Of a stretch of 64,000 bases of DNA, positions 4,794 through 36,492 are shown piece by piece (positions within the stretch are counted from its first letter, which is position 1; each line of letters opens with the position of its first letter). A program made the position numbers and the translations under genes. The notes below the pieces were generated by a model. The model saw only the letters and a list, made by a program, of their open reading frames with translations. It was not told the origin of the DNA and did not search any database. Source of the DNA: Candidatus Omnitrophota bacterium (GTDB taxonomy: Bacteria > Omnitrophota > Gorgyraeia > Zapsychrales > Zapsychraceae); assembly GCA_035292445.1 (NCBI GenBank), contig DATDQB010000013.1, positions 82,132-146,131 on the forward strand, written 5' to 3'.

Positions 4794-4924
4794 AAATCCT
4801 GCCCTTTTGTGAATAGTTAATAGTAAATCGTAAATAGTACAATACACAATTAACTATTGATCATTAACTATAAACGACTATTTCTTTTTGGGATTGAATG
4901 CAGTGCTTCCGGATGGAAATGATT

Positions 4925-5096: not shown

Positions 5097-8000
5097 TTAA
5101 TTCAAGAGGCTGACCTTTTCAGGTTCTTTGGCTTGGACGTCAGGATTCAATCCAAATTCGTTTTCCTCTTCTTCCCCGCCCAATCCCAACAATAACGGCA
5201 GGTTCGTGACCGGTGTCACGTTAATGATGATGGGAATAAAGCCTTCGATGTGCATCTGTTGGATGGGCTGCTGGTTCATCGGCAGCGGAATGCCTTTGTC
5301 ATCGCGTTTAATTTGCAAATCTAAAAGTGCGGGGTTCAGATCGATACCACCGACCGGCCCCTGGTCTTGCGCCAACTGGGCGCCATCGGCTGGGCCTATA
5401 GCTCCTTCAACAGCACCTTTTAATTGAACAATAGTAAACGGCTTCGCCAAAATACCCAAATAATCTGAGGAACCCGCTACTTCGGCAGAAGGCGCTCCTT
5501 CATAATAACCGGACATGAGCTGCACCTTGATGCCGGGATGATTCCTGACAACATGGTCTGCCAGACTAAATCCGGTTTCATCCGGCATCACAATATCCGA
5601 TAAGACTAACACAAATTCCTGCTGAGATAATTGCTCTCTTGCTTCGGCGGCACTGGAAACAACCGTTACTTGATAACCAGCTCGCTCCAAAATCCGTCGG
5701 GCTACATTGCCCACAGATGCTTCATCATCCACCACGAGAACCCGCCGTGTTACCATCGCATTATCACCGTGGACGAAATCAGCTTCTATAAACCCACGTA
5801 ACGTTTCGCCGAAGGCTTCATCTTTTGAAATGACCCGCTTGATATCACCGGGCGACGCGGCTTGACGGTACAATTCCTTGGATGCTGTATCCCCAGCCCC
5901 AAAATCTCCAGACATCAAGATGACCGGAATATTGGGGAAATTAACATCCGCGACCCTTAGATCTGCCAGCGCTCTCGTTAATGCTATACCGCTGATCCGC
6001 GGCATGTTCAGATCTGTTAATATACCTGCAAAACGTGTCGGATTAGCTCGAATAATATCTAAGGCTATTTTCCCATCTTGGGCAACAACAACTCGGTAAC
6101 CCAGGCCTTCTAACATCTCTTTAAAATCTTCTCTTAAACCCGCATTGTCCTCGACAAGCAAAATCTCGCCCGTCACCATGGCTTGATCGGCGGATCCGAA
6201 GACTTCAGCGGCCATGGCCGAATCTCCAGAAACACTTCTTTGATTTCCGTCTCGATCAAAATAATAAAAATGCGTTTGTTGCCTCACATCTATTATAAAG
6301 ACAATAGGATAAACAAAAGCCCTGCCGCCAACATGACTGACATAAAATTCCCGCCTCTCGTTCACGGCCCTTAAAACACCCTCGCGTTCAACAAGAATGG
6401 AATCCGGAATCACGGCTTCCTTCAGAGGAAGCTCTTCCCCTAATTGGGCCAATATAACGCCCATTTTCTTGACCATTTCAGAATAAGCTTTAACGATAAA
6501 TCGAATATTGAGTAATTCGACCGGCCTTCTTAAAACAGAAAGATTCGCTTCCGTAACGTTCTGGATATCCATCGACTCTAACTCTCGCGTTGCTTCACTG
6601 ATGGTGGTGAGCAATTCATCGTCCTGAATTTGCGCATCCAGGGCGATATCTGACACTTTAGTGTAAACATTTTCTATCGATGATTTCTGCGCCCCCCTAT
6701 CTCCTCTGGTTTGACCGCGTAAAACTCTATCAGCCGCGATGTATTGTTTCATAATATCCGCGAACCTTAACAATTGTTCTCTTACTTCCGGGACGTCTTG
6801 AACACCGACGCCATAAAATGTAGCGCGAAGCTTCCTCGCCCGCTCAAAATCTTGGTCCCCTATCATCGCCGCGTCAGCCACTTGCGAGTCTGTCGAGACG
6901 TCGCTTGATAAAGCTTCTAATTGTGTTTCGACCATAGGAATATATTTAGTAATATCGGTTGCACTTAATAATAAAACCTGTGCTTGTAAAGCTAACCTTT
7001 CAGCTAATCCAAAATTCTGCGACTTTTGTTCAGCTATCCCTTCTTTCGTGACATTCGATGTGATCTGCGTATAAAATCGGATCGCTTGAGAAGTTCCTGA
7101 AGGGCGGATAGTGATATGATTTCTGCTATTAGTAAACGGGACCCCTGGCTCCAACGCTTCATCATCAAGAAAGAATCTAATGCCTTCATCCGGAAAACCT
7201 TCATAATGCTGAGCGTCATAACGCCCGGATTTGAATTCGACCGCGCCAATAATTCTTTGGCCAGATAAGACCCAAGGATTATCGGTTTGCGCCCGCGCAT
7301 TCGCTTCTTGCATCCATTCTTGAGCCTTCCTTAATAATTTAATTTTCTCCGTAATACCTTCAGCGCCTTCGAACGAGCCCACACGGGGCAAAGGCTTATT
7401 GGCTGTTGCATAATGACCGATCTGCATATAAATATCATCCAATAATTCGAATATCATTGTGCCCCGTTCTTTGGCGTAAGCTGCCACCTCTAACGCCAGG
7501 ATACCCGCAAAAACACCGTCTTTATCATTAACATGCCCGTCATCGGCTAAGATCTCTCCTTCGGCAACTGGCCCCCCCATAATGGAATAACCATTGGACT
7601 CTTCCTGCGATCCCTCATTGGTTAAACCCCGTTCACGCATCCTTTCAGCATACTGAGCTTGATACGTCATTCCCACCCATGCACGACGGCCGCTTAGATA
7701 ATCTCCCCTGTTCTCTTTTCCTGTCACATCCAACATCTCTCCGAGAGCTTGAACCCCGAACAAAGCCGCCACTTCCTCGATAGCATCTGTTGTAACATGG
7801 CTTAAACTAACAAAATGCTGCTGGGGATTCTCTAATAATCCCAGTTCTTTCTTTCTCATAAGCCTATACCATGTTAACAATGTCCAAAGATCATTTGCCG
7901 ACAATAAGCGATATTTGCCGAATAACTGCTGTTGGCTCTCAGGTACTTTGACAATCAGCCCTAAACGATCCGCATCGGGATCCGTTCCGATCAAGACATC

Positions 8001-11000
8001 TAACTGATCGAAAGCTTCCTGGCCATGCTCGGCTATAAATTCTTTTACAGCAATGTCCGCCGAAATCGAATCGCCGGGATCAGGCTGTTCTCCCCAACCA
8101 AAAGCCGGGAACAACCCGTCCAATTCCTGTAATTTTGAAATGACTTTATAATCCGTAAAACCTAACTCGGACAACAATCTGGGAACCGCTTTATTGCCCG
8201 ATCCGTTAAATGCCGAAAAGCCGATTCTTAAATTACCCGCTTGTTTTTGAACAACATCATTATCAATAATAAATTTTTTGACCTGCTCCGCATGCAACGT
8301 ATGCATGTCAATTAAATTGCCCGGCCTGCTGACATCAACTCCTTTATAATCCTTACCGTCAACGGGTGTTGCTCCGCCCAGCCATATTAATCGGCCCTCA
8401 CCAGCTTCTTCTAATGCTTTTAACTTGATATCAGCTACCGTTGTAGCATTGATAGCTTTTAAAACTTCATTCTTCATGCTTTGGGGTAACTGGGCTCCCG
8501 TGTTGTTGGTAATTTTATATCCATTGTACTGGCTTGGATTATGGCTGGCTGAGATAAGAATGCCGATATCCGCCCGAACAGCTTGTGTTGTGACACCAAA
8601 AGATAATTCCGGGAACGGGCTTGCTTCATCAAACAAATAAACAGTAAATGGATAATCCTCGCTAGACTGCCCAATAAAACTTTGTGCGATCATCTCGGCA
8701 AACTGCTCACCGGCGATCCGGCTGTCAAAGCCAATGGCGACTTTATGAAATCCGTTTGCTTTCATGTAATTGATGACACCCGCGGTGTATCGTAAAAGAA
8801 CAATATCATTGATCGTATTCGGCCCCTTCAGGATACCTGCGCCGGGCCCATAGGTTTTAAGCTCACGTAATTCATCCTCCGTTAACGCCGCTAATCCCCG
8901 AATACCAGCGGTTCCGAAGACGATATTTTGCCGAAACACTTCAACTAAATCCTTCCATCGCTCTTCCTGTATCGCTTTCAGTATTGCCACCTGTGTTTGT
9001 GGAGAAATCCTCTCGATATCAGGATTCGTTGCCCAAGCTTGGAGGTTGGGAAATGTTTCAGCAAGGGCTTTATTGAATATTTCATCGGTGATCCTTCCTT
9101 CACTATGTTGTTCTCTTAAGTAGTCCTCAATGCTACCTTTTGCAGAAGCAACCACCGAATTTCGACTCACCAGCATTGCGCGATCGGGTGAAAAGATCTC
9201 AACCTCACCTTGCTGATCAATCTTTAGACTGATATTTCTTAGAATCAATCTCCCATCATCGGTTTTCTCAAAAATACCTGCATATCGAGCATCATTAAGG
9301 TCAACTATTTCTTTAAATTCACTGGCAATCGTGACACTCCCTTCCAAGACCGCTCTTTGTAAATGCACCCGGCCGGCGATGCTTAATTCATCCAAATTCG
9401 TCATATCCGTGCCATCTAAAGCCCGAATGGCATTTTCCACATCCTCATAATACGGATCCATTGCTCCAAACCCCGGAAGATGCGGCGCGGCATTGTTGAC
9501 TAAAACACCGTTTGCGGCATCCACGCTAAAATGACCGGTGTGCGCATAAAGAATATGATCAAACGCGTATTTGGTCGGGGTAAAAAAATTGGTACGGTTT
9601 TGCGGGTCAACATTAACCATATAAAGAAGCCGCTTAAAACCATATTTGTTGTCCTCCAACAAAGCGCGCACCCTCTCGTCATCGGTCGTAGTCACAAAAG
9701 CATTTAAATTTAAAAGAGCCGAACCCATGGCTCCCTCCAACTGTTTAACGCTTCGCCCCTCTTTTATTTTTGAATTACCAATCAAATCAGGCGTAACAAT
9801 CTCATTAAATTTCTCGCGGCCGATAATCTCCAACAAATCTTTTAAGAAAGGCTGAAGCACGCTGTAATTCATAACAGCGACATTGGTATTAAAAAGCTGT
9901 CCGCCAGGCTCTCCTTGCGTTAAACCCATCTCATAAAACAGCTGTTTTTGCTCGTCAGTCACTTGAGCTAATTCAAGGATTTGCGGTGCCGACTTGCCAT
10001 TAGGCAGCACTTGCCGGCCCAATTGTCCTCCCTTTTTATCCAACGGCGTTTTAGTGGTTGTAATCATAACAATAGGGATTTTATTAGTGACCATCCAGCC
10101 AATAATATAATTGTCGGGAACATTGTTGACCCCATCACCGTTATAAACGCTGCGGATTAACGCTTGGCCGTCTGTTGGTAAATCGACCGTTAAAGCGTCC
10201 TGTAAGGCCATTGAACCTAATTGCCCATGCCCGCCCGGTGCCGTAAAATCAGTGGTTAGCTCACCCGTTTCGATATCGATGACGGGTAATGAAGCCTGTT
10301 CAATCATGCGTTGGCCAAGTTCTATGCCCGGCGTTTCCTCAATCACCTGACGATAAGTTCTTCTTTGCGAAGCGGGAATAGATTGGTCGATACGGTCAAA
10401 TAGATAAATCGTTTCACCAAGAAAATGCGTCATTGGGCCGATACTCTCTTCATTAACCAACTCTTGAATAACCAAATTGGCGAATTGACCCTGTTGGGCG
10501 GCTTTAATGGCTCGAATATATTTTAATTCTGTGATGCTGACCAATTCCGTAACTGTTATGGGTTGGCCGCTTTCATCATGTCCTTGCATCTGCACTTCAA
10601 AGAATAAATCCATTGATTTGGCGCCTAACTGAGACCGTCCCGTAAGTCGCAGTAAATAATCTTTGCGTTTAACGCTCGTTCCCAAACCACCATCCATCGG
10701 ATTGGCCAAAACAATTGATTGCGCCGCGGCTTGTGCGTAGGCAGGGTTATCAGCAATTTGCGTCGTATAGCCCATTTCCCCTAATTCTTCTTTTCTTTGA
10801 TCAGAAGTCAATAAAGCAGATGGAAAAAAATTACCGCCAATCTTCAATGATTGCTCTTGTTGTGAAGAGCTTTTCGAGCGGACATATTTAGCGTAAAGAC
10901 CCGCCATATAGGAACGATCGAACCCAGCCAGGCCTAATGGGGCAACAAAGGCTTCAAATTCGGCTAGTGAAAGCATCGCCCGGTCGGTAGGAGCGCTGGC

Positions 11001-12530
11001 CTGCAATCTCTCTCTGGCCCGGCCGAGCCTTAATATATCGTTGGCAAACTGGGTAAGCTTTTCCCTGGCCTGTCTTCTGACCTGGGCATTCCCTTCACGT
11101 GTGTCTCTTTCGGCTAGCAGGGCGGCGGCTTCGATCCTGGCGGTTAATCCATCGATTTCTTCAAGGTTATAACGGTTCTCTCTTAGACCCCGCCGCTCCT
11201 GTTGTGTTAAAGTATTATCTGCCAACATCGACTGGTCGGAACCAATAGTAGCCATAGCTCCCGTTGCCCTTTGTGCCTCGGCAACACCGTTTATTCCGAC
11301 CTCGTTCAAGGCAACCGTTACGCGCTCTGTTTCTCCGTGGTCAACCACGGCGGCAACAAAATCCGTAACTCTGCCGCGCTGCTCTGGCCTTAAAACCTCC
11401 TGGCTTGCTTTAATACTCTCGAAACTCATCATCGCCCGGTCAATAACGTATCCGCCGGAGAAATATTTGCGCGGGATCACCTCTTGGGTGGCGGGGTCGT
11501 AATCTTCCTTGATATATTCATAAACGCCTGTCTTGAACGCTTCCAGATATTGGCTGTAAATCTTCTCTTTAATGGACTTATCCTCAATATCGATGCCGAC
11601 AATTTTGTTCTGGTCGACATACACTTGGCCCAAGAGGGATTCTTTCAGATTCTCCTTGAACCAGATCGCAAGAAGCAACGAATTCGTGATCTGTCTTAAG
11701 GCGGCAAAGGTCTTGCCTTCATTGACTTCCTTTTCAATTTCGGGGATCAAGACCTCGCGAACGACCTGGGAGCTGACCTCATTAATGGCCTCGACATCTT
11801 TGTTGGCCAGCATGTCGGTGCCGAACTTTTCGCTGCCGATATTCTCCTGTAACGCAACGTAATCCTCTTCCAGCATGACGCGCATGTGGCTTTCGATGAC
11901 ATACGCCGTTCCCTGATGTTCATAAATGGTCGCTTTATCCGGCAGGATCCAAACTTTATTGAAGGTGTTAACAGGAATATCTTTTGTCCCGTACAACTCA
12001 AAAGCCTTCTTGTAAACACGATCCCAGAACTCTTTGCCCAAGTCTTTTTCCGGATAGATCAATGAAGCGGTCAATTGTTTCAAGATATAATCTTGGGCCA
12101 AAAGATCGCGGCCCATCTCCGTTTGGCCGAATTTTTCCGAGATGATCCGGTTCTTTTCATAAGGGGAAAGGTTGACCCACAGCTCATCTTCGGGAACCGT
12201 TAAGGAGGCCATGAAATATTTGATGAGCTTGTTGGCCTCCATGCGTAACTCTTCGCCTTCTATCTTGTCATCACCTGTATTGACCAAAAAATCGAATTGC
12301 AAAGGATTTTCGGGATTAAGCGTTAGACCGATGATCATGGCAGGCGTATAACCCGGGCTCACGGAAACCATTGTTCCGGGTGCGGGAAGATTCAAAATGG
12401 TTTGCGGATTGATCTGGGCGAAACTGGCTTGCGGCGGAAGAATGAGGCTTGAAATAAATGAAGCGGAAATAAGAACCGAAAGGAGCTTTCTTAAAAATGA
12501 ATTTTCGCAGGTATGCAGGTACTTAAACAT
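5097..12530 (-). CDS. Giant multi-module secreted protein, paralog B (2477 aa): signal peptide, conserved N-module, UDP-sugar pyrophosphorylase-like module, phosphohexomutase module, unknown module, two CheY-like receiver domains, conserved C-module.
   Basis: A 7.4 kb uninterrupted ORF. The N-terminus MFKYLHTCENSFLRKLLSVLISASFISSLILPPQASFAQ looks like a signal peptide. UDPGP-like motifs: NPMDGGLGTSVKRKDY and ITTTKTPLDKKGGQL. Alpha-D-phosphohexomutase motifs: IVFGTAGIRG and SASHNPSQYNGYK. Two REC domains: EILLVEDNAG...ILTDLNMP...VILMSGD and RRVLVVDDEAS...VLSDIVMPDETG...KVQLMSGY. The C-terminus is VGGIDLNPALLDLQIKRDDKGIPLP...GFIPIIINVTPVTNLPLLLG. Confidence 0.85.
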   Translation of the reverse strand: MFKYLHTCENSFLRKLLSVLISASFISSLILPPQASFAQINPQTILNLPAPGTMVSVSPGYTPAMIIGLTLNPENPLQFDFLVNTGDDKIEGEELRMEANKLIKYFMASLTVPEDELWVNLSPYEKNRIISEKFGQTEMGRDLLAQDYILKQLTASLIYPEKDLGKEFWDRVYKKAFELYGTKDIPVNTFNKVWILPDKATIYEHQGTAYVIESHMRVMLEEDYVALQENIGSEKFGTDMLANKDVEAINEVSSQVVREVLIPEIEKEVNEGKTFAALRQITNSLLLAIWFKENLKESLLGQVYVDQNKIVGIDIEDKSIKEKIYSQYLEAFKTGVYEYIKEDYDPATQEVIPRKYFSGGYVIDRAMMSFESIKASQEVLRPEQRGRVTDFVAAVVDHGETERVTVALNEVGINGVAEAQRATGAMATIGSDQSMLADNTLTQQERRGLRENRYNLEEIDGLTARIEAAALLAERDTREGNAQVRRQAREKLTQFANDILRLGRARERLQASAPTDRAMLSLAEFEAFVAPLGLAGFDRSYMAGLYAKYVRSKSSSQQEQSLKIGGNFFPSALLTSDQRKEELGEMGYTTQIADNPAYAQAAAQSIVLANPMDGGLGTSVKRKDYLLRLTGRSQLGAKSMDLFFEVQMQGHDESGQPITVTELVSITELKYIRAIKAAQQGQFANLVIQELVNEESIGPMTHFLGETIYLFDRIDQSIPASQRRTYRQVIEETPGIELGQRMIEQASLPVIDIETGELTTDFTAPGGHGQLGSMALQDALTVDLPTDGQALIRSVYNGDGVNNVPDNYIIGWMVTNKIPIVMITTTKTPLDKKGGQLGRQVLPNGKSAPQILELAQVTDEQKQLFYEMGLTQGEPGGQLFNTNVAVMNYSVLQPFLKDLLEIIGREKFNEIVTPDLIGNSKIKEGRSVKQLEGAMGSALLNLNAFVTTTDDERVRALLEDNKYGFKRLLYMVNVDPQNRTNFFTPTKYAFDHILYAHTGHFSVDAANGVLVNNAAPHLPGFGAMDPYYEDVENAIRALDGTDMTNLDELSIAGRVHLQRAVLEGSVTIASEFKEIVDLNDARYAGIFEKTDDGRLILRNISLKIDQQGEVEIFSPDRAMLVSRNSVVASAKGSIEDYLREQHSEGRITDEIFNKALAETFPNLQAWATNPDIERISPQTQVAILKAIQEERWKDLVEVFRQNIVFGTAGIRGLAALTEDELRELKTYGPGAGILKGPNTINDIVLLRYTAGVINYMKANGFHKVAIGFDSRIAGEQFAEMIAQSFIGQSSEDYPFTVYLFDEASPFPELSFGVTTQAVRADIGILISASHNPSQYNGYKITNNTGAQLPQSMKNEVLKAINATTVADIKLKALEEAGEGRLIWLGGATPVDGKDYKGVDVSRPGNLIDMHTLHAEQVKKFIIDNDVVQKQAGNLRIGFSAFNGSGNKAVPRLLSELGFTDYKVISKLQELDGLFPAFGWGEQPDPGDSISADIAVKEFIAEHGQEAFDQLDVLIGTDPDADRLGLIVKVPESQQQLFGKYRLLSANDLWTLLTWYRLMRKKELGLLENPQQHFVSLSHVTTDAIEEVAALFGVQALGEMLDVTGKENRGDYLSGRRAWVGMTYQAQYAERMRERGLTNEGSQEESNGYSIMGGPVAEGEILADDGHVNDKDGVFAGILALEVAAYAKERGTMIFELLDDIYMQIGHYATANKPLPRVGSFEGAEGITEKIKLLRKAQEWMQEANARAQTDNPWVLSGQRIIGAVEFKSGRYDAQHYEGFPDEGIRFFLDDEALEPGVPFTNSRNHITIRPSGTSQAIRFYTQITSNVTKEGIAEQKSQNFGLAERLALQAQVLLLSATDITKYIPMVETQLEALSSDVSTDSQVADAAMIGDQDFERARKLRATFYGVGVQDVPEVREQLLRFADIMKQYIAADRVLRGQTRGDRGAQKSSIENVYTKVSDIALDAQIQDDELLTTISEATRELESMDIQNVTEANLSVLRRPVELLNIRFIVKAYSEMVKKMGVILAQLGEELPLKEAVIPDSILVEREGVLRAVNERREFYVSHVGGRAFVYPIVFIIDVRQQTHFYYFDRDGNQRSVSGDSAMAAEVFGSADQAMVTGEILLVEDNAGLREDFKEMLEGLGYRVVVAQDGKIALDIIRANPTRFAGILTDLNMPRISGIALTRALADLRVADVNFPNIPVILMSGDFGAGDTASKELYRQAASPGDIKRVISKDEAFGETLRGFIEADFVHGDNAMVTRRVLVVDDEASVGNVARRILERAGYQVTVVSSAAEAREQLSQQEFVLVLSDIVMPDETGFSLADHVVRNHPGIKVQLMSGYYEGAPSAEVAGSSDYLGILAKPFTIVQLKGAVEGAIGPADGAQLAQDQGPVGGIDLNPALLDLQIKRDDKGIPLPMNQQPIQQMHIEGFIPIIINVTPVTNLPLLLGLGGEEEENEFGLNPDVQAKEPEKVSLLN

Positions 12531-12843
12531 AGATAATCTTTATCTAATATTAATATTAATTAAATTTAGAGGTTAATAAAAGTCTATCATAAGAATATAT
12601 AAAATCAAGCTTGGATAGGCCAATAATTTATTATAAGATATTGATATTAAATGAGTTATGTATTGACTAAAAATTTTTGCCTTAAAAACCTAATTGTCCC
12701 CTGAGCTTGCTTCATGGCACTCCGCTATCATTCAAAGCCGATCTTCGATGCACCTGCAATCCTATGCAAAAAGCAAATCATCCTTTACATCAAAAAAAAT
12801 GTCTGGTAATATGAGTCGCCGTTAAGAAAATTTCGTTAATTAA

Positions 12844-12918
12844 CGTCCCTGTAGCTCAGGTTGGATAGAGCATTTGCCTTCTAAGCAAAGGGTCGCACGT
12901 TCGAATCGTGCCAGGGAC
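12844..12918 (+). tRNA. tRNA-Arg (anticodon TCT)
   Basis: Clean cloverleaf: acceptor GTCCCTG/CAGGGAC, D-arm GCTC-AGGTTGGATA-GAGC, anticodon stem TTTGC/GCAAA with loop CTTCTAA (anticodon TCT), T-arm GCACG-TTCGAAT-CGTGC, discriminator A. CCA is not encoded. Confidence 0.85.
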
Positions 12919-12999
12919 ATTCTTTCTTAGTATATGCTATGCCCTGCCCCGACGCGCTATTACATAGCGGTCGGGGTCCCGACCGAGGTGAAACCGAGC

Positions 13000-13074
13000 G
13001 TCGGGATAGCTCAGGTTGGATAGAGCATTTGCCTTCTAAGCAAAGGGTCGCACGTTCGAATCGTCCCGGGGTCA
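13000..13074 (+). pseudogene. Degenerate tRNA-Arg-like copy. Its 57-nt core (D-arm to T-arm) is identical to the upstream tRNA-Arg, but its acceptor-stem strands (GTCGGGA ... CGGGGTC) cannot pair and its T-stem has one mismatch.
   Basis: The core TAGCTCAGGTTGGATAGAGCATTTGCCTTCTAAGCAAAGGGTCGCACGTTCGAATCGT is repeated exactly. The 5' strand GTCGGGA instead pairs with the upstream TCCCGAC to form a separate hairpin. I could not fold a canonical cloverleaf. Confidence 0.5.
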
Positions 13075-13086
13075 TTTTCTTTAACC

Positions 13087-14058
13087 ATGAAGATAAAACC
13101 CATCTATCGATTCTTTATATGGCTCGCCTTCATCGGCCTCGTTATCCTGGCCTTCCTGGCCTATTACTTCCAGAACCATGAAAAAGACCTCTTCCTTGCC
13201 GCCCTGCGGTCTTCTCTCGACCAAGGCATCAGCGCTTCCGATGTCGATTATGATTTCCCCTTCGGGTTCAGCTTGGATGACTTCCAGATCGAAGGCGTCG
13301 TTCAGGCAAAAAAATTAAGCGCCCAGCTTGACCCGCGTTCTTTCATAGAAAAAAAGATCATCCTTAGCCAGATGACCCTTCACCAGCCTATTATCACCTG
13401 GCGTAAAGAAAAAAAGGCGGCCGCTATCGCGGAAAATCAAAATGTTTCCAACGGGCCTTCGGTTGGCACCCCGAAAACGATCCCCCAGGAGGCATCAAAA
13501 CTTATTATCAAGCAGCTGCGCATAAAAAACGGCCGTTTCCATTTTGCCGATGAATCGGCCATCCCGGCCCTTTCCTTTAAGCTGGATAATCTCCAGATGA
13601 AAATCGAAGACCTTATTTTTCCGCTGTCTCCAACGGCAACCACCTTTCAATTGAAAGCCAATCTGATCAAAGAAAACGCCCCGGTTTCGGGCAGCGTTGT
13701 GCAAAGTAACGGCTGGATCGATCTGGCCAAAAAAGACCTGGATGGAACTCTTCTTATCATTGAATCGGACGGTAAGACCGGCTTAAGCGCCCATGCGATC
13801 TCAAAAAACAACGATTTAAACGTCGAAGGCAAGATCAAGGCGCAAAACTTGTTCAAACAGTCCGGCGAAAATCCATTGGAGACGACTGTGGATAATATCG
13901 TCCTTAACACCTTATCGAATATGGGCATCGAGATCGGTGCAAGTTTTTCCTTTAATACCAAACTCGATGATTTTCGCATCGAACAGATCTCTTTCTCAGG
14001 AAGCGTCTCCACTCATGAGGTTCCCGCAACCGAGCCGATGAATCCTGTTGCGCCGTAG
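13087..14058 (+). CDS. Membrane protein with an AsmA-family-like N-terminal region (323 aa): one N-terminal TM helix, then a periplasmic beta-rich region.
   Basis: The N-terminus MKIKPIYRFFIWLAFIGLVILAFLAYYF is a single TM helix. The architecture resembles the start of the 1033-aa AsmA-like protein at 31606. The gene is on the opposite strand to the giant genes and sits just after the tRNA-Arg pair. Confidence 0.55.
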   Translation: MKIKPIYRFFIWLAFIGLVILAFLAYYFQNHEKDLFLAALRSSLDQGISASDVDYDFPFGFSLDDFQIEGVVQAKKLSAQLDPRSFIEKKIILSQMTLHQPIITWRKEKKAAAIAENQNVSNGPSVGTPKTIPQEASKLIIKQLRIKNGRFHFADESAIPALSFKLDNLQMKIEDLIFPLSPTATTFQLKANLIKENAPVSGSVVQSNGWIDLAKKDLDGTLLIIESDGKTGLSAHAISKNNDLNVEGKIKAQNLFKQSGENPLETTVDNIVLNTLSNMGIEIGASFSFNTKLDDFRIEQISFSGSVSTHEVPATEPMNPVAP

Positions 14059-14172
14059 GGAATTTGTGATAGAATTCTGAACGTTAGTTGGTGGGTGCCC
14101 TGACTTCTCTTTAAAAAAATTATGGTAGTCAGGACTACCACCATTTTCTCTAAAATTTAAATTGTGGTAAAT

Positions 14173-14250
14173 GGTGGGTGTAGCGCAGCTGGTTAGCGCA
14201 CAAGATTGTGGATCTTGTGGTCGCGGGTTCGAATCCCGTCACCCACCCCA
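14173..14250 (+). tRNA. tRNA-His (anticodon GTG) with genomically encoded G-1 and 3' CCA
   Basis: G-1, then acceptor GTGGGTG/CACCCAC, discriminator C, CCA encoded. D-arm GCGC-AGCTGGTTA-GCGC. Anticodon stem CAAGA/TCTTG with loop TTGTGGA (anticodon GTG). T-arm GCGGG-TTCGAAT-CCCGT with one G-U pair. Confidence 0.85.
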
Positions 14251-14386
14251 TATTAAAAATCCCAAGACACAAGATACAAAAAAACCAAACAATATCCAAA
14301 TTTCAATATTCAATTTCCAAACAGTTTGGTCATTTGAATTTGTAATTTTGTATTTGTTTGTATCTTGTTTCTTGTATCTTGGAAAT

Positions 14387-14423
14387 TAAAAAGGCGGTCT
14401 CCTTACGGAAACCGCCTTTTTTG
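14387..14423. terminator. Bidirectional rho-independent terminator serving tRNA-His (plus strand) and giant gene C (minus strand)
   Basis: AAAAAGGCGGTCTCCTTACGGAAACCGCCTTTTTT: a 6-bp GC stem (GGCGGT/ACCGCC) flanked by an A-run upstream and a T-run downstream. Confidence 0.7.
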
Positions 14424-14588: not shown

Positions 14589-17500
14589 TTATCCTTTAAA
14601 TATCGCTATCCTATCCAACACATCCCTCAGCGTGAACTTGCGCATCGAAAGCGCTGGCGCTTTCTCTTCCTCATCCTGTGCCTGCTCGATCGGTTCATCC
14701 GGAATAAAATCTGCGATTCCCAACAGCATCGGCATATTATTGATCGGCGCGATGTTAATGATCACGGGAATAAACCCGTCAATATGAATATTTTGCAGCG
14801 GTTGCATCTCAACCGGCAGCGGAATGCCGCGGCCGTCGCGCTTAATTTGCAGGTTAAGAAGCGCCGGGTTCAAATCAATACCGCCGACCGGCGTTGTTTC
14901 TTGAGCTGTTACAGCTCTATCAATGCCGGCCGATGATGAGACGTCCTCTTCCTCTGAAGGAAAGTTGACAATTAATTGACCTTCCAAAAATTCACGGATA
15001 ATCCTTCTAAATTTAATCTCCCGCACCTTAAAATCTCTTGCCGAGTTTATGTGGGTTGCTCTTGTCAGATCTCCTTTTGAATAAAGATCCGGCGCATCTT
15101 CGCTTAGCGGGGTGCTCAATTCTTTACCATCAAGATAATGGATCAACCGGGCGAGGAGCCCGACGCGATCGCCAAATAATTCTTCATCGCCCATTTCTTC
15201 CAGTAAATCCTCGGCGATCTCCCAAGCTTCCGCAGGCGTCAGCATCGCGCCGTCGCCCTGCTCCGTCATGGCGGCATCGATGCTGACAATTGTATGATCG
15301 ACTTCCACCGGGAAGATCTCGGCTTTCAGTTCATTTCCAACGTTATAAATCTTAATCACCACGGATGTTTGGCCGCCTTCCGTTGCCTGCGTTCCAGTTT
15401 GACCAAAAACCCAATCATTGGCTATGACAGTAAAAATACCAACAACATCGCCTTTTACATCTTGTTCCGTAAAAAATTTTTGCCCATTAAGAATTGCTCC
15501 GGCATCACCATAGCTTTCCCGTATAACACGAAGCTCGGATGCCTCAGCTAACTTAAAATTATAGCGTTCGGAAAGGTCAGGCAATTCTTCTCCAGCAGCG
15601 TTTTTATTCATTTTGGCGTTATAAACCCGAACCCCGGCCACAGCGCCGATATATTTTGCGGCACCGGCAATCGCTAAGTTCATAAATCCTTCGGCCGAAC
15701 CGCCAACGGTTATAACTGTTTTGTGGACACCATAAGAACGCCCTGTTGCGGCCTCATAAAGAGCCGGTGTTAACGTCGCCCTTAACCCATGTGCAACAGT
15801 TCCATCCTGAAGCGTCTTTTGAACAACGCTCACACCTTGTATTCCATATTCTTGCTTAACCTCTTCAATGGCTCGTACAAAAGCAGTTTCTCGTTTACGG
15901 TTCATCACGATAATCTCTTCCTGAACTTGCGAGAGTTCTTGTCTACGAATAGCGGCCAAAAACTTAAGGTACGCCAAAATGCCTTCTTTAGGGTGAGCCG
16001 CATATAATTCAGGATCGTAAAGATGGTATTTTTCCCCACCCACTTCAACAGCGGCTGCCCTTAACGCGTCGGCATCTTCACCCACATTCGTAATAAACTG
16101 ATGAACGTATCCATCGGGGACGTTTCCTAAATCGCGCACACCGCGCCCGACAACAATATCGCTATTGGCTCCCGCCTCATTTTCCGGAGCTTCCTCCAAG
16201 GATCTGTTGCCAGAATTGGTGACAAACTGATTAGTCCCTTCGACCACGTCGATAATGGCATCAAGAATCGGATAATACCGGCCATTTTCGCTTAGGTAGA
16301 ATTCATCGCCACGGTCAATGGCCGCTTTAATGGCTTCGACTTCGTGTTGGATCAAGTTAGGCATAATGACTTCATTGGATTTTAAGCTTTCCGCCACTTC
16401 ATCCCGGCCGAAACCTTCGGAAACACGAACCATCATAATGATACCCAGTTCTTTGATAGTCCGTTCAAAAATCCTTTTGGCGAAACCATCGACCACATCT
16501 GTAATGGCCGTTTGCATTCTTTTTAATTCATCTTTGGCAATGGTTCCTTCTTTCCCCAAAACCATTATTGCTACTTCCGCAAATTCGCCCCTTTGCGTCG
16601 TTTGATGAAGTTGAGTAAATAACAATGCGATCTGCGTCCGCTGCTCAGATGTATCAGAGACACTTTTAACAACATCTAAAATTTTTTGATAAGCACCTCG
16701 TAAACCAAGAGCGGTTAATTTGGCGGCCGTGTGTGTTGTCAATATAACAGGCAACTCATCACGAATGGCGCGTAATCTCGTTGCTTCTTCTTTGTTTGGC
16801 TGTGCCGCCATCGCGGCGTCAAAATCCCTAATCATCTGCCCTAACTGTTCATTATCAATGTTGACCTGGACCATCCGGCCATAAACATCAACACGGGCAA
16901 CGAAGGCCTCAACGCCGATGCGCTCAATTAACGCATCGTACTCATCCATGACACCTAAGCTGGCTGCCTGGATCCTGAAGGAGGCGCGGACGAACTCGTT
17001 CTGCGCCGCTTGTTCGTTAACAAAATCCCCATTAAGGACCGTTAAAGCGGTCTCCTTGGAAGCCCTAGAGAAGGAAGCAGCATAGCGCCAAGGCGCTCCC
17101 ACCCGCTTCGCTTCTTTCACAATGGCATTTAAATTGCGGGCCGCCTGATCAGCGGTCTGCCCCCCTGATAAAAAGACAATCGTGCCTAATTCCGGAGGAA
17201 GACTATCCATATGCACGGCAACAGTCGCTCTAGCCACTTCTTCGGGTGTATCTTTAGGCGCTTTATCACCCGAGGTGACCATGCTCACTTTAATCGCGCT
17301 GCCTTTCAAATCAACCCCTAGGCGGCTGGCGGCTTCCGTATAAACCTTAAGAATACGCCTGTTCGCCTCTGCGCTGGCTTCAATATCATGAGAGCCTTTA
17401 ATCAACACCTCTGGCTCAGGCGTTGGGACCCTTCCTAATAACTGAACATCTAAAACATGTTGGGCCAACATCTCCATATTCGCTTCGATATTACGTTGCG

Positions 17501-20500
17501 TCGGAAGACCAGCATCTGTATCAATCGTAAATGTTTGACGGAATTTATCGGCATGAGATGTGGGTATCATATCCATAATCGCACGAAGGTTATCGATCCC
17601 CAAACCTTTTGGTTTAGAGAGCTTCTCGGGATCAAGGCCTTCACGGCTTGGCCGAGGGCTCTGTGTATCATCATCGATACCCCGATCAGTTTTATGGATA
17701 ATGCTTATCCCTCTTCCTTCCACGTGGGTGGCTAAAAGAGGCTTGTCTTCATCATCCACATAGCTGACGGATTCATCCTGGACAATAATGCCGCCAAAGA
17801 CATACTGGATGCCTGGGGCGGTATAGAACATCCTTCTCATTCTTTCGCGAAGAAGATAGTTCGCGCCGTCGACTTTATCAGCATCCGGATAAGCCTTTGC
17901 ATCCACTATCTTAAAACCGTATCTTTTAAGAAGTGCATTGCCTGTTGATGGAGACCCATCCGAAGCAAAGTAGTTACGGCCTCGCCCCGTCAGGCTTTGT
18001 ACTCTTTCACGAAGAAGGGTTTTTTGGACATCCGTCAACATCGCGTGATCTTCGTCTTCCGGGGGGTATTCCGAAATTGGTCTAGGCGGTAACACCTGGG
18101 TAGCGCCTGTGTCTAAATCATCTACTTCTTCCTGTTCTCCATCGACTACGGTGCCTACAGGGTTGGGGTCGCGGTTAATTTCATCCATTACTTGGAGCAA
18201 GCCTAAACCTAAACCTGAATTGACAATCAATGCTATAACGTCATCTTCACTACTCTCTCCCAATGAAAGAAGTCGATCATAGGCATCCTTGACCATGATT
18301 CTTCCAGCTAATAAATCTTCCAGAATTCGGTCAGCCGCCATCATGGCGCTGTCGCCAGAAAGCAATTGCTCACCCTGACCAATAAGACGATTGATTCGAG
18401 CTCTTTTTTCATTAAGCTCGGATGATCCCAATTCATCCGATAATTGGCCTATCTCCAAAAGAATCGCCCTTTGTCCAGCTCTCAATATATAGAGTTCGTT
18501 CTCGATGTCTTGTGCCGGTTCGGGATAAAAGGTTTCAGGTGCAGCGAAGCGCTCCTCAATGTGATCAAGGCTGACATCCTCCAAGGGAAAAGCGACCTCA
18601 TCTGCTCCTTCCAAAGGCCTGATGCGACTGATCGCTCTCTTGAGCAACCCTTCTATCGTATGTCGGTCGGTTGTAAGTTGGGCTATCTGTTGCGCAATTG
18701 AACTTCTTTCCTCTGGTCCATCTTTGAGGCTACGCTCCCTGGTCCTTAATTGTGTAATACGGGTTCTTACGCCTATCAAGGAAATTCGCAATTTGTTGAT
18801 AAGATCCGCCAATTCATTAACAGACAGATCATGTTGTAACGCCGTTTCTTTTTCTGCAATCTGTCTATGTATTTCTCCCATTAAATCATCTTTGGCTTTT
18901 AATCCGGCCCGGTCTTTCATGGTATCGCCTTTACCACCCTCAAATGATATGGCGGCAGTTTCCCCTATAGCAACCGATGTCATGAATTCCAGCCCTCTGT
19001 TGCCGGCAAAAACCTGCGGGTTGATCGACATGCCGCTTTTTTGCTTACGGCCGATCTCTTGCCACTGGGCCAGCCCGTCCATACCGTCCCTTAAATATCC
19101 CCCTTTACCGTCAGTCCCTTGCAAAAACTGCATGGTAGCGGCGTGTAGGAATGTGGATCCGCCGTAGGTGATAAAATTGAACTGGGAATATTTTCCCTGT
19201 TCCGGCAGAAATGCCTTTCTTTCTTCCGGCGTCATTAGACGACTCCCATCCTCGGTTTTGGCAAGCGGCCAATAAAAGGACGGCGACGTGTTATTTGCTT
19301 TTATTCTGGTTGTCGCATCCAGTAAACCCACGGCATCATCATGAGCTAGGTCTAACTCTTGAAGCGCTTTTAAGGCATATGAATAACTGTCCGGATCAAC
19401 TGGCCGGTTATTGTGATATGTTTCGATAATTTTCTCTACCTGAGTTTTAATTCGATCTCGAAAAGCCTGATCAAATCTTTCAAGAATTTCGTCATACCAG
19501 CCTTCGGCAAACAATAAGCGTCTGGCTTCCGCATCCAGGGCGGTTGACCACTGCTTGACTTCGCCAATATGCGGATGGTGCTGCTCAAACCAAGAAATGT
19601 CCGTATATGGCAAGGCTGATTTGGAACGGGCAATGGCCATTTCCATGCCGCTATTGATCATCCAAATGGTACGGCTTCTCTTCTCTACCGAACGGGTGAG
19701 CTGGAAATCCCATAATACGTTGATCGTGCCTGAGAAAGCTTCAGGCGCTTCATCCACCAACTGGATTTGACTGCTGTCGATGAGGCGAATTCCGATCTCT
19801 CTGGCCTTTGCTTTTACCAGATCGAAAAATCTTACGTCTCTTTCATAAGGTATAGCCGCAACAAAAGCTCTCCATTCTTCAACCGTCATACCAATCTTAT
19901 CCTGATTTGCGGCGATAGTTCTTGCCACAATTTCATCGATCGTCAAAAGATTGGCCATGATCTTCCATTGATTATGGACCTTTTGTAATTCGGAAGCCTC
20001 TAGCCCTGATTGATTGGCAGCCGTGATAACATCTTGATAGGTTTGGACCCTACCTTTGCTATCGTGAATCAAAGGTATATACTTCTGCCAGTCAGATCTA
20101 AACCGGGTGATTGTTGCCGCTATCTTTTCAGCCGGCATTTTTTTGGCAACCAGGTCTTTTTCCAATGCTTTGACTGCTTCTTCCAGACGTTCAGCTTCAT
20201 CGGCCTCAGTAACACCAAGAATAAATTTCTGATCACGTCCGTCATCATGGCCCGTGATCCATTCGGCCGATTCGGCATCGGTCCGGGCAACGATCAACGT
20301 ATTAAGACCCATGCGGTCAAACTCAAAACGGGCCTCAAGAAGTGTTTTGATCCAATGATCCGTACTATCGAGGACTTTGCCGCTCATATGCCCGCACATT
20401 TTACATCCGTGAGCTTGATCTTCAATGTGGACTGCGGCGATATGTGTTTCTTCCTCGCCCATTGACAGAACCCTTCGTGCCATCTCCTGGACCTTTAAAT

Positions 20501-31268: not shown

Positions 31269-31440
31269 TCCACCAGTCCTCGTTTATAGAAAACAATTCT
31301 TTTTTCTGGGAGGATTCACAAGAACCTTATCGTGGCAATGATTTTCTATGGTGTAAATATAACATTATTAATAATTACTGTCAATGAGGCCATCAGAGGC
31401 GGCGCCATAGAAAGATCGAGGACGAATATTATTTAAATGG

Positions 31441-31514
31441 TCGGGGCGGGGGGATTCGAACCCACGACCCCTTGCTCCCAAAGCAAGTGCGCTAGCCAGC
31501 TGCGCTACGCCCCG
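31441..31514 (-). tRNA. tRNA-Pro (anticodon TGG)
   Basis: The reverse complement folds with acceptor CGGGGCG/CGCCCCG, D-arm GCGC-AGCTGGCTA-GCGC, anticodon stem CTTGC/GCAAG with loop TTTGGGA (anticodon TGG) and a T-loop TTCGAAT. The T-stem has one non-Watson-Crick pair. Confidence 0.8.
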
Positions 31515-34668: not shown

Positions 34669-35307
34669 CTATAAAGGGCGGGTGCGAGACCCGCCCCTAC
34701 AAAAATATTCATTCAATATTTTTTTAATTTTCCTAAACGCGCGGGCCCGATGGCTTATCTTGGTTTTAATGGAAGGGTCCAACTGGCCGAAAGTCTTGTT
34801 ATATTGGGGAAGGTAAAATAAGGGGTCGTAGCCAAAACCGTTTTTCCCCTTGGAACGAAGATCGATCAATCCGCTACAACTGCCACTGACAACATCAATG
34901 ATCCGGTTCCCGTCCACCAAAGCGGCGAAGCAGCGGTAACGCGCGTTTCTTTTCTTAAGCGGGACTCTTTTAAGGCAGCGAAGAAGCTTCAGGTTATTCT
35001 TCCGGTCGGTCGCATTCTCCCCCGAGAAGCGGGCGGAATAGATGCCTGGTTTGTTGCCGAGGGCCTTGACCTCAAGCCCTGAATCCTCACCGAGGGTTAA
35101 TTTCTTCGTATAAAACGCGATTGTTGCCGCTTTTTTGAGCGCGTTCTGGGCAAATGTTTTTCCGTCTTCATCGACCCTTGGAGCGCTGGGGTAATCGACA
35201 AGAGAGGTGATCTTTATGCCTAAATCGGCAAGCAATTCTTTGATCTCACGCAGCTTCCCCTTGTTTGTCGTCGCCACAACCAGTTCTTGCACGTTAGAAC
35301 TCCACAC
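34669..35307 (-). CDS. rdgB: Non-canonical purine NTP pyrophosphatase (RdgB/Ham1 family)
   Basis: [17 protein letters not shown]...[19 protein letters not shown]...FGYDPLFY are Ham1-family motifs. The gene is 3'-adjacent to rph, which is the usual gene order. Confidence 0.8.
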
Positions 35308-36016: not shown

Positions 36017-36030
36017 TGAAAGCCTTTCTT

Positions 36031-36435: not shown

Positions 36436-36492
36436 TTATTCTCCTTGCTATTTAATATAAAAGTACGGGCGACCCGCCGGGTCGCCCCTACA

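What the first reader, a model, noticed from the sequence alone, without database searches (positions are those of the whole stretch)
12844..13074. tRNA-Arg followed by two GC-rich hairpins and a degenerate duplicate tRNA core
A canonical tRNA-Arg(TCT) at 12844..12918 is followed by two tandem hairpins with near-identical stems (CCCCGAC...GTCGGGG at 12946..12975 and TCCCGAC...GTCGGGA at 12977..13006). A second copy of the tRNA core (nt 8 to ~65, 57/57 identical) follows, but its acceptor stem cannot pair. This looks like a recombination scar, a partial tandem duplication, or the remnant of a site-specific integration into the tRNA gene. It sits exactly where the giant-gene array is interrupted. 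No integrase is present in the window.
Basis: seen in the sequence. Interest (0 to 1): 0.55.

Follow-up and report, generated by a model that had tools for sequence, protein, structure and literature searches.

The report
Broken second tRNA-Arg gene with hairpins
Next to a normal arginine tRNA gene in an Omnitrophota bacterium lies the wreck of a second copy, cut by two hairpins and patched together from two gene versions, which is an ordinary by-product of local duplication and recombination.

Summary
An intact tRNA-Arg(UCU) lies at 12845-12919. Two stable 30-nt hairpins follow (12947-12976 and 12977-13006). Then comes a 58/58-identical copy of tRNA positions 8-63 (13007-13064).

The second copy is not merely truncated. 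Its 3' end (13065-13074, CC CGGGGTC A) is the 3' end of a different version ("type B") of the same tRNA, which is the only tRNA-Arg at this locus in two related Omnitrophota contigs. One of those relatives carries the mirror image: an intact type B gene followed by a 21/23 remnant of the window's "type A" 3' end. A candidate 5' acceptor strand lies just upstream of the hairpins. Deleting 55-60 nt in silico restores a callable tRNA-Arg.

Best reading: two tandem tRNA-Arg paralogues recombined here. The downstream one was interrupted after nucleotide 7, and its body was homogenised by gene conversion. It is a chimeric pseudogene.

There is no integrase, no cargo and no viral att match, so the integration-scar reading is not supported. 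Function as an RNA processing or termination element is not excluded. A similar hairpin built from an extra copy of the tRNA's 5' acceptor strand precedes tRNA-His here and in a distant relative.

Interest is low to moderate.

The parts
12784..12812 (+). Promoter-like site TTTACA-17-TAATAT (TG before the -10 hexamer) upstream of tRNA-Arg.
   Evidence: Consensus scan. The same block CCTTTACATCAAAAAAAATGTCTGrTAATATGAG is nearly identical in L002, while the leader after it has diverged completely.
12845..12919 (+). Intact tRNA-Arg(UCU), "type A": acceptor GTCCCTG/CAGGGAC, T stem GCACG/CGTGC, discriminator A, no encoded CCA.
   Evidence: ARAGORN. Rfam 67 bits over the full model. Same acceptor and T-stem type as the single tRNA-Arg of L002.
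12940..12951 (+). Two overlapping candidate orphan 5' acceptor strands, TGCCCTG (12940-12946) and TGCCCCG (12945-12951). Either can pair with the 3' strand at 13067-13072.
   Evidence: Joining either strand to 13007 in silico gives an ARAGORN-called tRNA-Arg. The MFE fold closes the region with 12939-12945 paired to 13068-13075. By sequence alone the match to type B is not above chance.
12947..12976 (+). Hairpin H1: CCCCGAC / GTCGGGG stem extended by CGCUAU/AUAGCG, with a 3-nt loop.
   Evidence: -23.3 kcal/mol, z = -5.4. No U-tract follows, and the terminator scan does not list it.
12977..13006 (+). Hairpin H2: TCCCGAC / GTCGGGA stem. Its 3' arm occupies the place where nucleotides 1-7 of copy 2 should be.
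   Evidence: -15.3 kcal/mol, z = -3.2.
13007..13064 (+). Copy 2 body: tRNA positions 8-63, 58/58 identical to copy 1. It includes an extra G in the D loop that none of the relatives has.
   Evidence: Rfam local hit 33.5 bits, model positions 8-63.
13065..13074 (+). Copy 2 3' end of "type B": C64 C65, acceptor 3' strand CGGGGTC, discriminator A. It creates a C50:C64 mismatch in the T stem.
   Evidence: CGTCCCGGGGTCATT is 15/15 identical to the 3' end of the single tRNA-Arg of L001. All three differences from copy 1 are the type-B states.
13075..14058 (+). U-rich 12-nt trailer (13075-13086) and the downstream DUF748/AsmA-like gene (13087-14058, 323 aa). The gene is probably co-transcribed with the tRNA.
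   Evidence: Pfam DUF748. No promoter-like site lies between the tRNA and the ATG. The order tRNA-Arg / DUF748 gene / tRNA-His is kept in L001, L002 and L005.

Best explanation
The feature is the remains of a second tRNA-Arg(UCU) gene.

This Omnitrophota lineage carried two tandem versions of the gene between one promoter and the DUF748 gene. They differ in acceptor and T stems:
- Type A: GTCCCTG...GCACG/CGTGC...CAGGGAC.
- Type B: GGCCCCG...GGACG/CGTCC...CGGGGTC.

In this genome type A is intact and is the working gene. The downstream type-B copy was interrupted directly after nucleotide 7 by 55-60 bp that fold into two strong hairpins. Its body (nt 8-63) was then overwritten by gene conversion from the neighbouring type-A gene, or produced by an unequal crossover with it. 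The exchange ended inside the T-loop sequence that both types share.

That leaves a type-A body joined to a type-B 3' end, a C:C mismatch in the T stem, and no contiguous acceptor stem. It is a chimeric pseudogene that should not yield a chargeable tRNA.

What is shown: the anatomy, the chimerism, the two types and the reciprocal remnant in a relative.

What is inferred: the order of events, the conversion mechanism, co-transcription with the DUF748 gene, and lack of function.
For: 1. The core is 58/58 identical while the ends differ. Both copies share a D-loop extra G that is absent from L001, L002 and L005. The bodies were therefore homogenised within this lineage.
2. The 3' end of copy 2 matches the L001 tRNA-Arg 15/15. 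The three differences from copy 1 (positions 64, 67, 71) are all type-B states. L005, a distant MAG, also has the type-B acceptor.
3. The T stem is GCACG (type A) against CGTCC (type B). The junction therefore lies within the shared ACGTTCGAATCGT.
4. The reciprocal case exists. L001 has an intact type-B gene followed by a 21/23 remnant of the type-A T arm and 3' end (0 of 2000 shuffles reach that score).
5. All four combinations of acceptor type (A/B) and anticodon-stem type (TTGC/CAGC) occur: window A+TTGC, L002 A+CAGC, L001 B+TTGC, L005 B+CAGC. This is a recombination signature.
6. Deleting 12952-13006 or 12947-13006 restores an ARAGORN-called tRNA-Arg. The native sequence gives none.
7. Local duplications of tRNA ends are common at these loci. 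Exact copies of 9-15 nt occur in five flanks, where about 0.03 would be expected. In L005 the duplicated hairpin unit varies in copy number between assemblies.
8. There is a classical precedent in E. coli tyrT/tyrV, checked.
Against: - Only four independent comparator loci exist. The two closest relatives (P0003, P0004) have no retrievable DNA.
- No genome with two intact tandem genes (A + B) was seen. The tandem ancestor is inferred from remnants.
- The type-B 3' end in the window and the type-A remnant in L001 are almost undecayed, although neutral leader sequence between these lineages has diverged completely. This requires either very recent inactivation in both lineages or selection on the remnants.
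- The origin of H1 and H2 is unexplained.
- The assignment of the orphan 5' strand is not statistically distinguishable from chance.
Confidence: 0.6

Rival explanations
1. Co-opted structured RNA. The hairpins and the tRNA-like fold would be a functional part of the tRNA-Arg to DUF748 transcript. Possible roles are recognition by the tRNA-processing enzymes RNase P or RNase Z to separate the tRNA from the mRNA, damping of read-through from the strong tRNA promoter, or a stabilising 5' structure 12 nt before the start codon.
For: - The region folds into a closed six-way junction, with closing stem 12939-12945/13068-13075, H1, H2 and the D, anticodon and T arms, at -58 kcal/mol.
- H1 and H2 are far more stable than shuffles.
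- There is no separate promoter for the DUF748 gene.
- Hairpins carrying the tRNA's 3' strand also lie between tRNA-Arg and the DUF748 gene in L005.
- The remnants are better preserved than neutral sequence.
- A comparable hairpin built from a copy of the tRNA-His 5' strand is conserved between the window and L006, with three compensatory pairs.
Against: - Copy 2 and H1/H2 are absent from L001 and L002.
- The window spacer shows no significant similarity to the L005 spacer.
- The z-score of the whole region is only -1.8.
- H1 and H2 lack U-tracts.
- The hairpin unit in L005 varies in copy number between strains.
- The distance from the tRNA-like 3' end to the homologous start codon is not conserved: 12 nt in the window, about 49 in L002 and about 48 in L005.
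Confidence: 0.17
2. Scar of an integrase-mediated insertion and excision at the tRNA gene, i.e. att-site remnants left after loss of a mobile element.
For: - tRNA genes are common integration targets, and partial tRNA copies are a known by-product (PMC9897764, read).
- The 23-nt remnant in L001 covers the T arm to the 3' end, which is the usual att sublocation.
Against: - In the window the repeated part is nt 8-63 and the 3' end is what differs.
- The gap after the intact gene is 87 bp, with no cargo.
- No integrase, recombinase or transposase domain was found in the ORFs scanned.
- An element carrying a type-B 3' segment would not restore a type-A gene.
- The type-B 3' end has 0 hits in 2.9 million viral contigs. 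The only type-A hit is a complete tRNA-Arg(ACG) inside a phage tRNA array, not an att site.
Confidence: 0.06
3. Assembly or strain-mixing artefact: two alleles of one locus, type A and type B, laid down in tandem by the assembler.
For: - Types A and B are alternative states of the same locus in relatives.
- The source is likely a metagenome-assembled genome.
Against: - The flanks of copy 2 do not repeat the flanks of copy 1. The upstream side is H1/H2, not the leader.
- A collapsed bubble would duplicate whole alleles, not nt 8-63 joined to a different 3' end.
- Analogous local duplications at the L005 locus are reproduced in 8 of 9 independent assemblies.
Confidence: 0.05
4. An interrupted but working tRNA gene. 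The 55-60-nt hairpin block after nucleotide 7 would be removed or tolerated, giving a second tRNA-Arg(UCU) with a type-B acceptor stem.
For: - In-silico removal restores a called cloverleaf.
- The type-B 3' end is intact.
- The block sits at a helix junction where it could protrude.
Against: - Position 1:72 is a U:C mismatch and 50:64 is a C:C mismatch.
- No bacterial mechanism is known that removes an insert at position 7/8. This rests on established knowledge: bacterial tRNA introns are group I introns in the anticodon loop.
- Rfam finds no ribozyme or intron in the insert.
- The insert boundaries lie at the base of perfect helices, not in a bulge-helix-bulge motif.
- No relative has the same arrangement.
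Confidence: 0.04

Closest known systems
E. coli tyrT-tyrV locus: 178-bp repeats downstream of tRNA-Tyr, each starting with a copy of the tRNA 3' end (rttR sRNA, tpr)
   Same: Partial copies of a tRNA end lie in the same orientation within a few hundred bp downstream of the intact gene. They are attributed to local duplication and unequal recombination. I checked this directly: repeats spaced 178 bp apart, the last overlapping the tyrV 3' end, with rttR and tpr annotated. PMC3318445 cites Bosl and Kersten 1991 for the statement that rttR is encoded by one of the repeat units.
   Different: In E. coli the repeated piece is the 3' terminal segment and the units are long and regular. In the window the repeated piece is the body (nt 8-63), the 3' end comes from another gene version, and two hairpins interrupt it. 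The L005 locus, with 3'-strand copies in a tandem unit, is closer to tyrT than the window is.
Partial tRNA genes at the borders of integrated mobile elements (att duplications)
   Same: A non-canonical tRNA fragment lies next to a complete gene and is picked up by covariance models as a partial tRNA (PMC9897764).
   Different: The defining features are not met here. See the membership test.
Hybrid genes from unequal crossing-over or gene conversion between tandem tRNA genes (classical E. coli tyrT duplicate-gene genetics; from my own knowledge, not checked here)
   Same: A chimera junction lies inside sequence shared by two neighbouring paralogues, and the internal region is homogenised.
   Different: The second gene also lacks a contiguous 5' strand and is separated from it by hairpins. 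No genome with both parents intact has been seen.
Disrupted tRNA genes of archaea and Cyanidioschyzon (non-canonical introns, split and permuted genes; PMC3728597 and PMC3978253, listed but abstracts only)
   Same: The cloverleaf is restored when an intervening block at a non-canonical position is removed. H2 could be drawn as a closed acceptor stem, as in a permuted gene.
   Different: The organism is a bacterium. There is no bulge-helix-bulge motif at the boundaries. Two stem mismatches are present. There is no conservation.

Membership tests
Canonical bacterial tRNA gene | D, anticodon and T arms matching the tRNA covariance model | tested here: met
   Rfam RF00005 gives 33.5 bits (gathering score 29) for model positions 8-63 at 13007-13066. 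The T stem has one C:C mismatch.
Canonical bacterial tRNA gene | Contiguous 7-bp acceptor stem formed by nt 1-7 and 66-72 | tested here: not met
   The 7 nt before position 8 are GTCGGGA, against the 3' strand CGGGGTC. ARAGORN at default finds nothing in 12925-13090. At a relaxed threshold it returns only a distorted 69-nt model.
Canonical bacterial tRNA gene | Presence of the gene at the orthologous place in relatives | tested here: not met
   L001, L002/L017 and L005 each have a single tRNA-Arg between the promoter and the DUF748 gene.
tRNA fragment from integrase-mediated insertion (attL/attR) | The direct repeat equals the 3' part of the intact tRNA gene up to its 3' end | tested here: not met
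   The repeat is nt 8-63. From position 64 on the copies differ.
tRNA fragment from integrase-mediated insertion (attL/attR) | Mobile-element cargo with an integrase between or beside the repeats | tested here: not met
   There are 87 bp between the end of copy 1 and the repeat. Pfam scans of the main ORFs of the window show no integrase, recombinase or transposase. The left-edge ORF is another giant gene by length; it was not scanned against Pfam.
tRNA fragment from integrase-mediated insertion (attL/attR) | A matching attP in phage or element sequences | tested here: not met
   The type-B 3' end has 0 hits in viral contigs. Type A has one hit, a complete tRNA-Arg(ACG) in a phage tRNA array. 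Only exact matches in one collection were searched.
Local tandem duplication / unequal recombination products at tRNA loci (tyrT type) | Partial copy in the same orientation, close downstream of the intact gene | tested here: met
   Start-to-start spacing is 155 bp on the same strand.
Local tandem duplication / unequal recombination products at tRNA loci (tyrT type) | Chimera junction within sequence shared by two paralogues, and existence of both parental types | tested here: met
   The junction lies within ACGTTCGAATCGT. Type A is seen in L002 and type B in L001 and L005. The reciprocal remnant is in L001.
Local tandem duplication / unequal recombination products at tRNA loci (tyrT type) | Regular repeat unit, variable in copy number | tested here: inconclusive
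   The window has no periodic array. The L005 locus has a 74-bp unit present twice in 8 assemblies and once in L016.
Disrupted tRNA gene with removable intervening sequence | Removal of the block restores a cloverleaf | tested here: met
   ARAGORN calls tRNA-Arg(tct) after deleting 12952-13006 or 12947-13006.
Disrupted tRNA gene with removable intervening sequence | Bulge-helix-bulge motif or self-splicing intron at the boundaries | tested here: not met
   The boundaries lie at the foot of perfect helices in a multiloop. Rfam at E <= 10 finds no intron or ribozyme in 12700-13200.
Disrupted tRNA gene with removable intervening sequence | A mature spliced tRNA exists | not testable with these tools
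   This needs tRNA-seq or a Northern blot.
Rho-independent terminator | GC-rich hairpin immediately followed by a U-tract | tested here: not met
   The terminator scan lists nothing at 12947-13006. H1 is followed by H2, and H2 by UAGCUCAGG. Only the long-range closing stem is followed by AUUUUCUUU.
Dispersed palindromic repeats (REP / MITE-like) | Many copies elsewhere in the genome | tested here: inconclusive
   There is no other copy in the 64-kb window or in any fetched locus. The rest of the genome is not available.

The most novel reading that the evidence does not exclude
Omnitrophota may keep hairpins built from copies of a neighbouring tRNA's own acceptor strands as working RNA modules. 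Examples are H1/H2 plus the tRNA-like copy before the DUF748 gene, the four hairpins ending in the tRNA-Arg 3' strand in L005, and the hairpin whose 5' arm is an exact copy of tRNA-His positions -2 to 7 in the window and in L006. They would act as acceptor-stem mimics that recruit RNase P, RNase Z or the CCA-adding enzyme, or that act as attenuators, to punctuate tRNA-mRNA co-transcripts.
Probability: 0.15. Interest if true: 0.6.

Novelty: new member of a known kind. Interest (0 to 1): 0.28.

Why it matters
The main value is for annotation and for understanding how tRNA gene sets change. Covariance-model pipelines will report a partial tRNA here (33.5 bits against a threshold of 29), and it should be flagged as a pseudogene. 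The locus also gives a clear natural example of two versions of one tRNA exchanging modules and leaving reciprocal remnants in sister lineages of a poorly known phylum. If the recurring acceptor-strand hairpins turn out to be functional, they would be a new kind of processing or attenuation signal. The present evidence does not establish that.

Tried and rejected
**Searches for more comparator loci**
- The metagenome and genome scans with the DUF748 alignment returned only the two contigs already held plus one distant MAG.
- A profile search added only the L005 cluster.
- The two closest relatives (P0003, and P0004 at 74-75% identity) have no retrievable DNA.
- Using the N-terminus of the upstream giant protein to find syntenic contigs failed. 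It is a module shared by more than 1700 paralogues, and the contigs tried carry no tRNA.

**Ideas about the origin of the hairpins**
- H1 as a type-B acceptor "microhelix": only a 7-mer match, with 766 of 2000 shuffles as good. Dropped as a claim and kept as a possibility.
- The H1 5' arm as a remnant of the tRNA-Pro 3' end: 11/12 match, with 53 of 2000 shuffles as good. Too weak after multiple tests.
- Homology between the window hairpins and the L005 hairpins: not significant.
- H1/H2 as a dispersed repeat: no other copy found.
- The palindrome GGTCGGGGTCCCGACC has 11 hits in viral contigs. By my estimate that is about the chance number for a 16-mer in a collection of that size.

**Other readings**
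- Known RNA families: nothing besides tRNA.
- Permuted-tRNA reading, with H2 as a closed acceptor stem: no supporting feature.
- Conserved spacing between a tRNA-like 3' end and the DUF748 start codon: it does not hold in L002 or L005 once homologous start codons are used.
- RNAalifold on the three His-associated hairpins was uninformative because the automatic alignment misplaces the stems.

Full report
**1. The observation**

The window carries three tRNA genes that ARAGORN calls: Arg(tct) at 12845-12919, His(gtg) at 14174-14250 and Pro(tgg) at 31438-31514 on the minus strand. Rfam confirms them and adds a fourth, partial tRNA hit at 13007-13066. That hit scores 33.5 bits and covers model positions 8-63 only.

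The partial hit is an exact copy of 58 nt of the Arg gene: 13007-13064 equals 12852-12909.

Between the two copies lie two adjacent 30-nt hairpins with nearly the same 7-bp stem, H1 at 12947-12976 and H2 at 12977-13006. The pattern CCCGAC-N16-GTCGGG occurs twice here and nowhere else in 64 kb, against 0.07 expected. Both hairpins are much more stable than shuffled sequence.

The 7 nt in front of position 8 of the copy (GTCGGGA) cannot pair with its 3' strand (CGGGGTC). ARAGORN finds no tRNA in the native sequence.

**2. Organism and context**

The flanking proteins and the only genome hit place the window in Candidatus Omnitrophota.

The small islet on the plus strand consists of a promoter-like site (12784-12812), tRNA-Arg, a 323-aa DUF748/AsmA-like gene (13087-14058) and tRNA-His. 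It sits between giant minus-strand genes: 3-4853 (runs off the window edge), 5097-12530, 14589-27587 and 27900-31268.

The same islet, in the same order, is found in related metagenome contigs L001 and L002 (DUF748 protein 54-58% identical) and in a distant MAG, L005 (about 25% identical). In L001 a giant-gene N-terminus lies upstream and a giant-family gene downstream. The interruption of the giant-gene array is therefore old synteny, not a local insertion.

Pfam scans of the main ORFs show housekeeping genes and no integrase, recombinase or transposase.

**3. What copy 2 is made of**

Aligning the tRNA-Arg genes shows two versions at this locus.
- Type A (window copy 1 and L002) has acceptor GTCCCTG/CAGGGAC and T stem GCACG/CGTGC.
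- Type B (L001 and L005) has acceptor GGCCCCG/CGGGGTC. In L001 the T stem is GGACG/CGTCC.

Copy 2 has the type-A body, but from position 64 on it has the type-B 3' end. CGTCCCGGGGTCATT is 15/15 identical to L001. All three differences from copy 1 (positions 64, 67, 71) are type-B states.

As a result the T stem of copy 2 pairs a type-A 5' strand with a type-B 3' strand and has a C50:C64 mismatch. The switch lies inside ACGTTCGAATCGT, which both types share. That is what a homologous exchange between two paralogues would leave.

Both window copies also share an extra G in the D loop that none of the relatives has. Their bodies were therefore made identical within this lineage.

**4. The reciprocal remnant**

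L001 has an intact type-B gene. About 35-40 nt downstream, just before the DUF748 start, it has GTACGATTCATGCCAGGGACGCC. This is 21/23 identical to the T arm and 3' end of the type-A gene of L002, and none of 2000 shuffles scores as high.

The window is therefore "A intact plus B remnant" and L001 is "B intact plus A remnant". In addition, acceptor type and anticodon-stem type occur in all four combinations among the four loci.

Together this argues that both versions coexisted side by side and exchanged segments.

**5. The missing 5' strand**

Just upstream of H1 lie two overlapping heptamers, TGCCCTG (12940-12946) and TGCCCCG (12945-12951). Either can pair with the 3' strand of copy 2.

If the 60 or 55 nt between them and position 8 are deleted in silico, ARAGORN calls a tRNA-Arg(tct), with a U1:C72 mismatch and the T-stem mismatch.

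The minimum-energy fold of 12935-13085 (-58 kcal/mol) closes the region with 12939-12945 paired to 13068-13075. It keeps H1, H2 and the three tRNA arms as branches.

Copy 2 can thus be read as a whole gene interrupted right after nucleotide 7. I treat this as plausible, not proven. By sequence alone a 6-7-mer match in a GC-rich 87-nt spacer is not above chance.

**6. Where the hairpins come from**

This remains open. They are not a dispersed repeat in the available sequence. They match no Rfam family. They lack U-tracts. They have no significant similarity to the hairpins at the same place in L005.

What recurs is the theme. In L005 the tRNA-Arg is followed by four hairpins, each ending in the tRNA's own 3' strand and trailer (GGGGTCGTTTG). 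They are arranged as a 74-bp unit present twice in eight independent assemblies and once in a ninth. The tRNA's first 9 nt are also duplicated 82 nt upstream.

Across the 11 tRNA genes I could inspect, exact copies of 9-15 nt of tRNA ends occur in five flanks, where about 0.03 would be expected. Local duplication around tRNA genes is evidently frequent in these genomes.

**7. Best explanation**

The feature is a chimeric pseudogene, the downstream member of a former tandem pair. It was broken after nucleotide 7 by a hairpin-forming block, and its body was homogenised by gene conversion or unequal crossover with the working gene. I give this about 0.6.

One point does not sit easily with it. 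The type-B 3' end here and the type-A remnant in L001 are almost undecayed, while the leader between promoter and tRNA has diverged beyond recognition between the window and L002. Either both inactivations are recent, or the remnants are kept for a reason.

That keeps a functional reading alive at about 0.17, for example a processing or attenuation element in a tRNA-mRNA co-transcript.

The other rivals are weaker:
- An integration scar contradicts the anatomy, has no cargo or integrase, and has no viral att match.
- An assembly artefact does not fit, because the flanks of the two copies differ.
- A working interrupted tRNA has two stem mismatches, no known removal mechanism in bacteria, and no conservation.

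**8. Comparison with what is known**

The nearest well-described case is the E. coli tyrT-tyrV locus. There, 178-bp repeats, each beginning with a copy of the tRNA-Tyr 3' end, follow the genes. I verified the repeats and the rttR/tpr annotation in K-12 (see also PMC3318445).

Partial tRNA genes in prokaryotes have been attributed mainly to mobile-element integration (PMC9897764). The defining features of that class were tested here and are not met.

The present case is another member of the broader class of tRNA gene fragments made by local duplication and recombination. Its unusual details are a chimeric type A/type B junction and an interruption after nucleotide 7.

**9. Verdict**

The feature is real and not an integration scar. 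It is most likely a non-functional recombination product. Interest is low to moderate (0.28). The recurring acceptor-strand hairpins, especially the one before tRNA-His, are the part worth a wider survey.

Noticed in passing
window 14089-14171 (with tRNA-His 14174-14250); L006 1768-1840: TGGTGGGTG, an exact copy of tRNA-His positions -2 to 7, lies 83 nt upstream of the gene. It forms the 5' arm of a long hairpin (14089-14105 / 14127-14143) whose 3' arm ends CTACCACCA and is followed by TTTTCTCT. It sits between a conserved extended -10 promoter (TTGTGATAGAAT at 14064-14075, also present in L001, L002 and L005) and the tRNA.

L006 is a distant relative whose DUF748 protein is 33% identical. It has the same arrangement. 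Its orphan copy follows its own acceptor variant (TGGTGGATG in both places), and three of the seven inner-stem pairs have changed on both sides. The two elements are homologous (0 of 2000 shuffles score as high). No Rfam family matches.

It could be a leader attenuator, a terminator for the DUF748 gene, or a duplication scar.
   Followed up: partly
L002 3066-3130 (same in L017): About 70 nt downstream of tRNA-His, a hairpin ends in CACCCCATTTTCTCC, a copy of the tRNA-His 3' end plus trailer (CACCCCATTTCTTCC). It resembles the window's His-leader element (1 of 2000 shuffles score as high). The same kind of element therefore occurs on either side of tRNA-His in different lineages.
   Followed up: partly
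L005 2585-2900 and L008-L016: tRNA-Arg(UCU) is followed by a tandem repeat of a two-hairpin unit, each hairpin ending in the tRNA's 3' strand and trailer. There are two units in eight independent assemblies and one unit in L016 (ERZ795044). There is also an 82-nt tandem duplication of the leader that includes the first 9 nt of the tRNA.
   Followed up: yes
L022 3180-3254 (IMG/VR UViG_3300020576_006957): A phage contig carries an array of 25 tRNA genes in 8.3 kb. Its tRNA-Arg(ACG) has exactly the type-A acceptor stem and T arm of the window's tRNA-Arg(UCU): GTCCCTG ... GCACGTTCGAATCGTGC CAGGGAC. This may be chance or a shared tRNA-Arg scaffold.
   Followed up: partly
window 3-4853, 5097-12530, 14589-27587, 27900-31268 (all minus strand): These giant proteins share a conserved N-terminal module of about 360 aa (more than 1700 database relatives, nearly all Omnitrophota) and a conserved C-terminal module of about 94 aa. 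Between the modules they carry ordinary metabolic enzyme domains: PGM/PMM, UDP-glucose pyrophosphorylase and response regulator in one protein; malate synthase, isocitrate lyase and class-I aldolase in another.
   Followed up: partly
window 14263-14382: A long AT-rich inverted repeat (arms 14263-14284 and 14353-14374, 91% complementary, with inner arms 14286-14322 / 14324-14360) lies directly after tRNA-His. It is followed by a strong bidirectional terminator-like hairpin at about 14393-14413.
   Followed up: no
window 47005-47481 and 47478-47987 (+): Two short overlapping ORFs carry the C-terminal half of an HTTM domain and the lumenal domain of a vitamin-K-dependent gamma-carboxylase-like protein. 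This looks like one gene split by a frameshift, or truncated at its start.
   Followed up: no
window 35294-38199 (-): Several tRNA-related genes lie a few kb from the tRNA islet: RNase PH, then QueF, a radical-SAM QueE-like gene, QueC and a QueD-like PTPS (7-deazaguanine/queuosine precursor pathway). Cysteinyl-tRNA synthetase is at 55470-56930.
   Followed up: no
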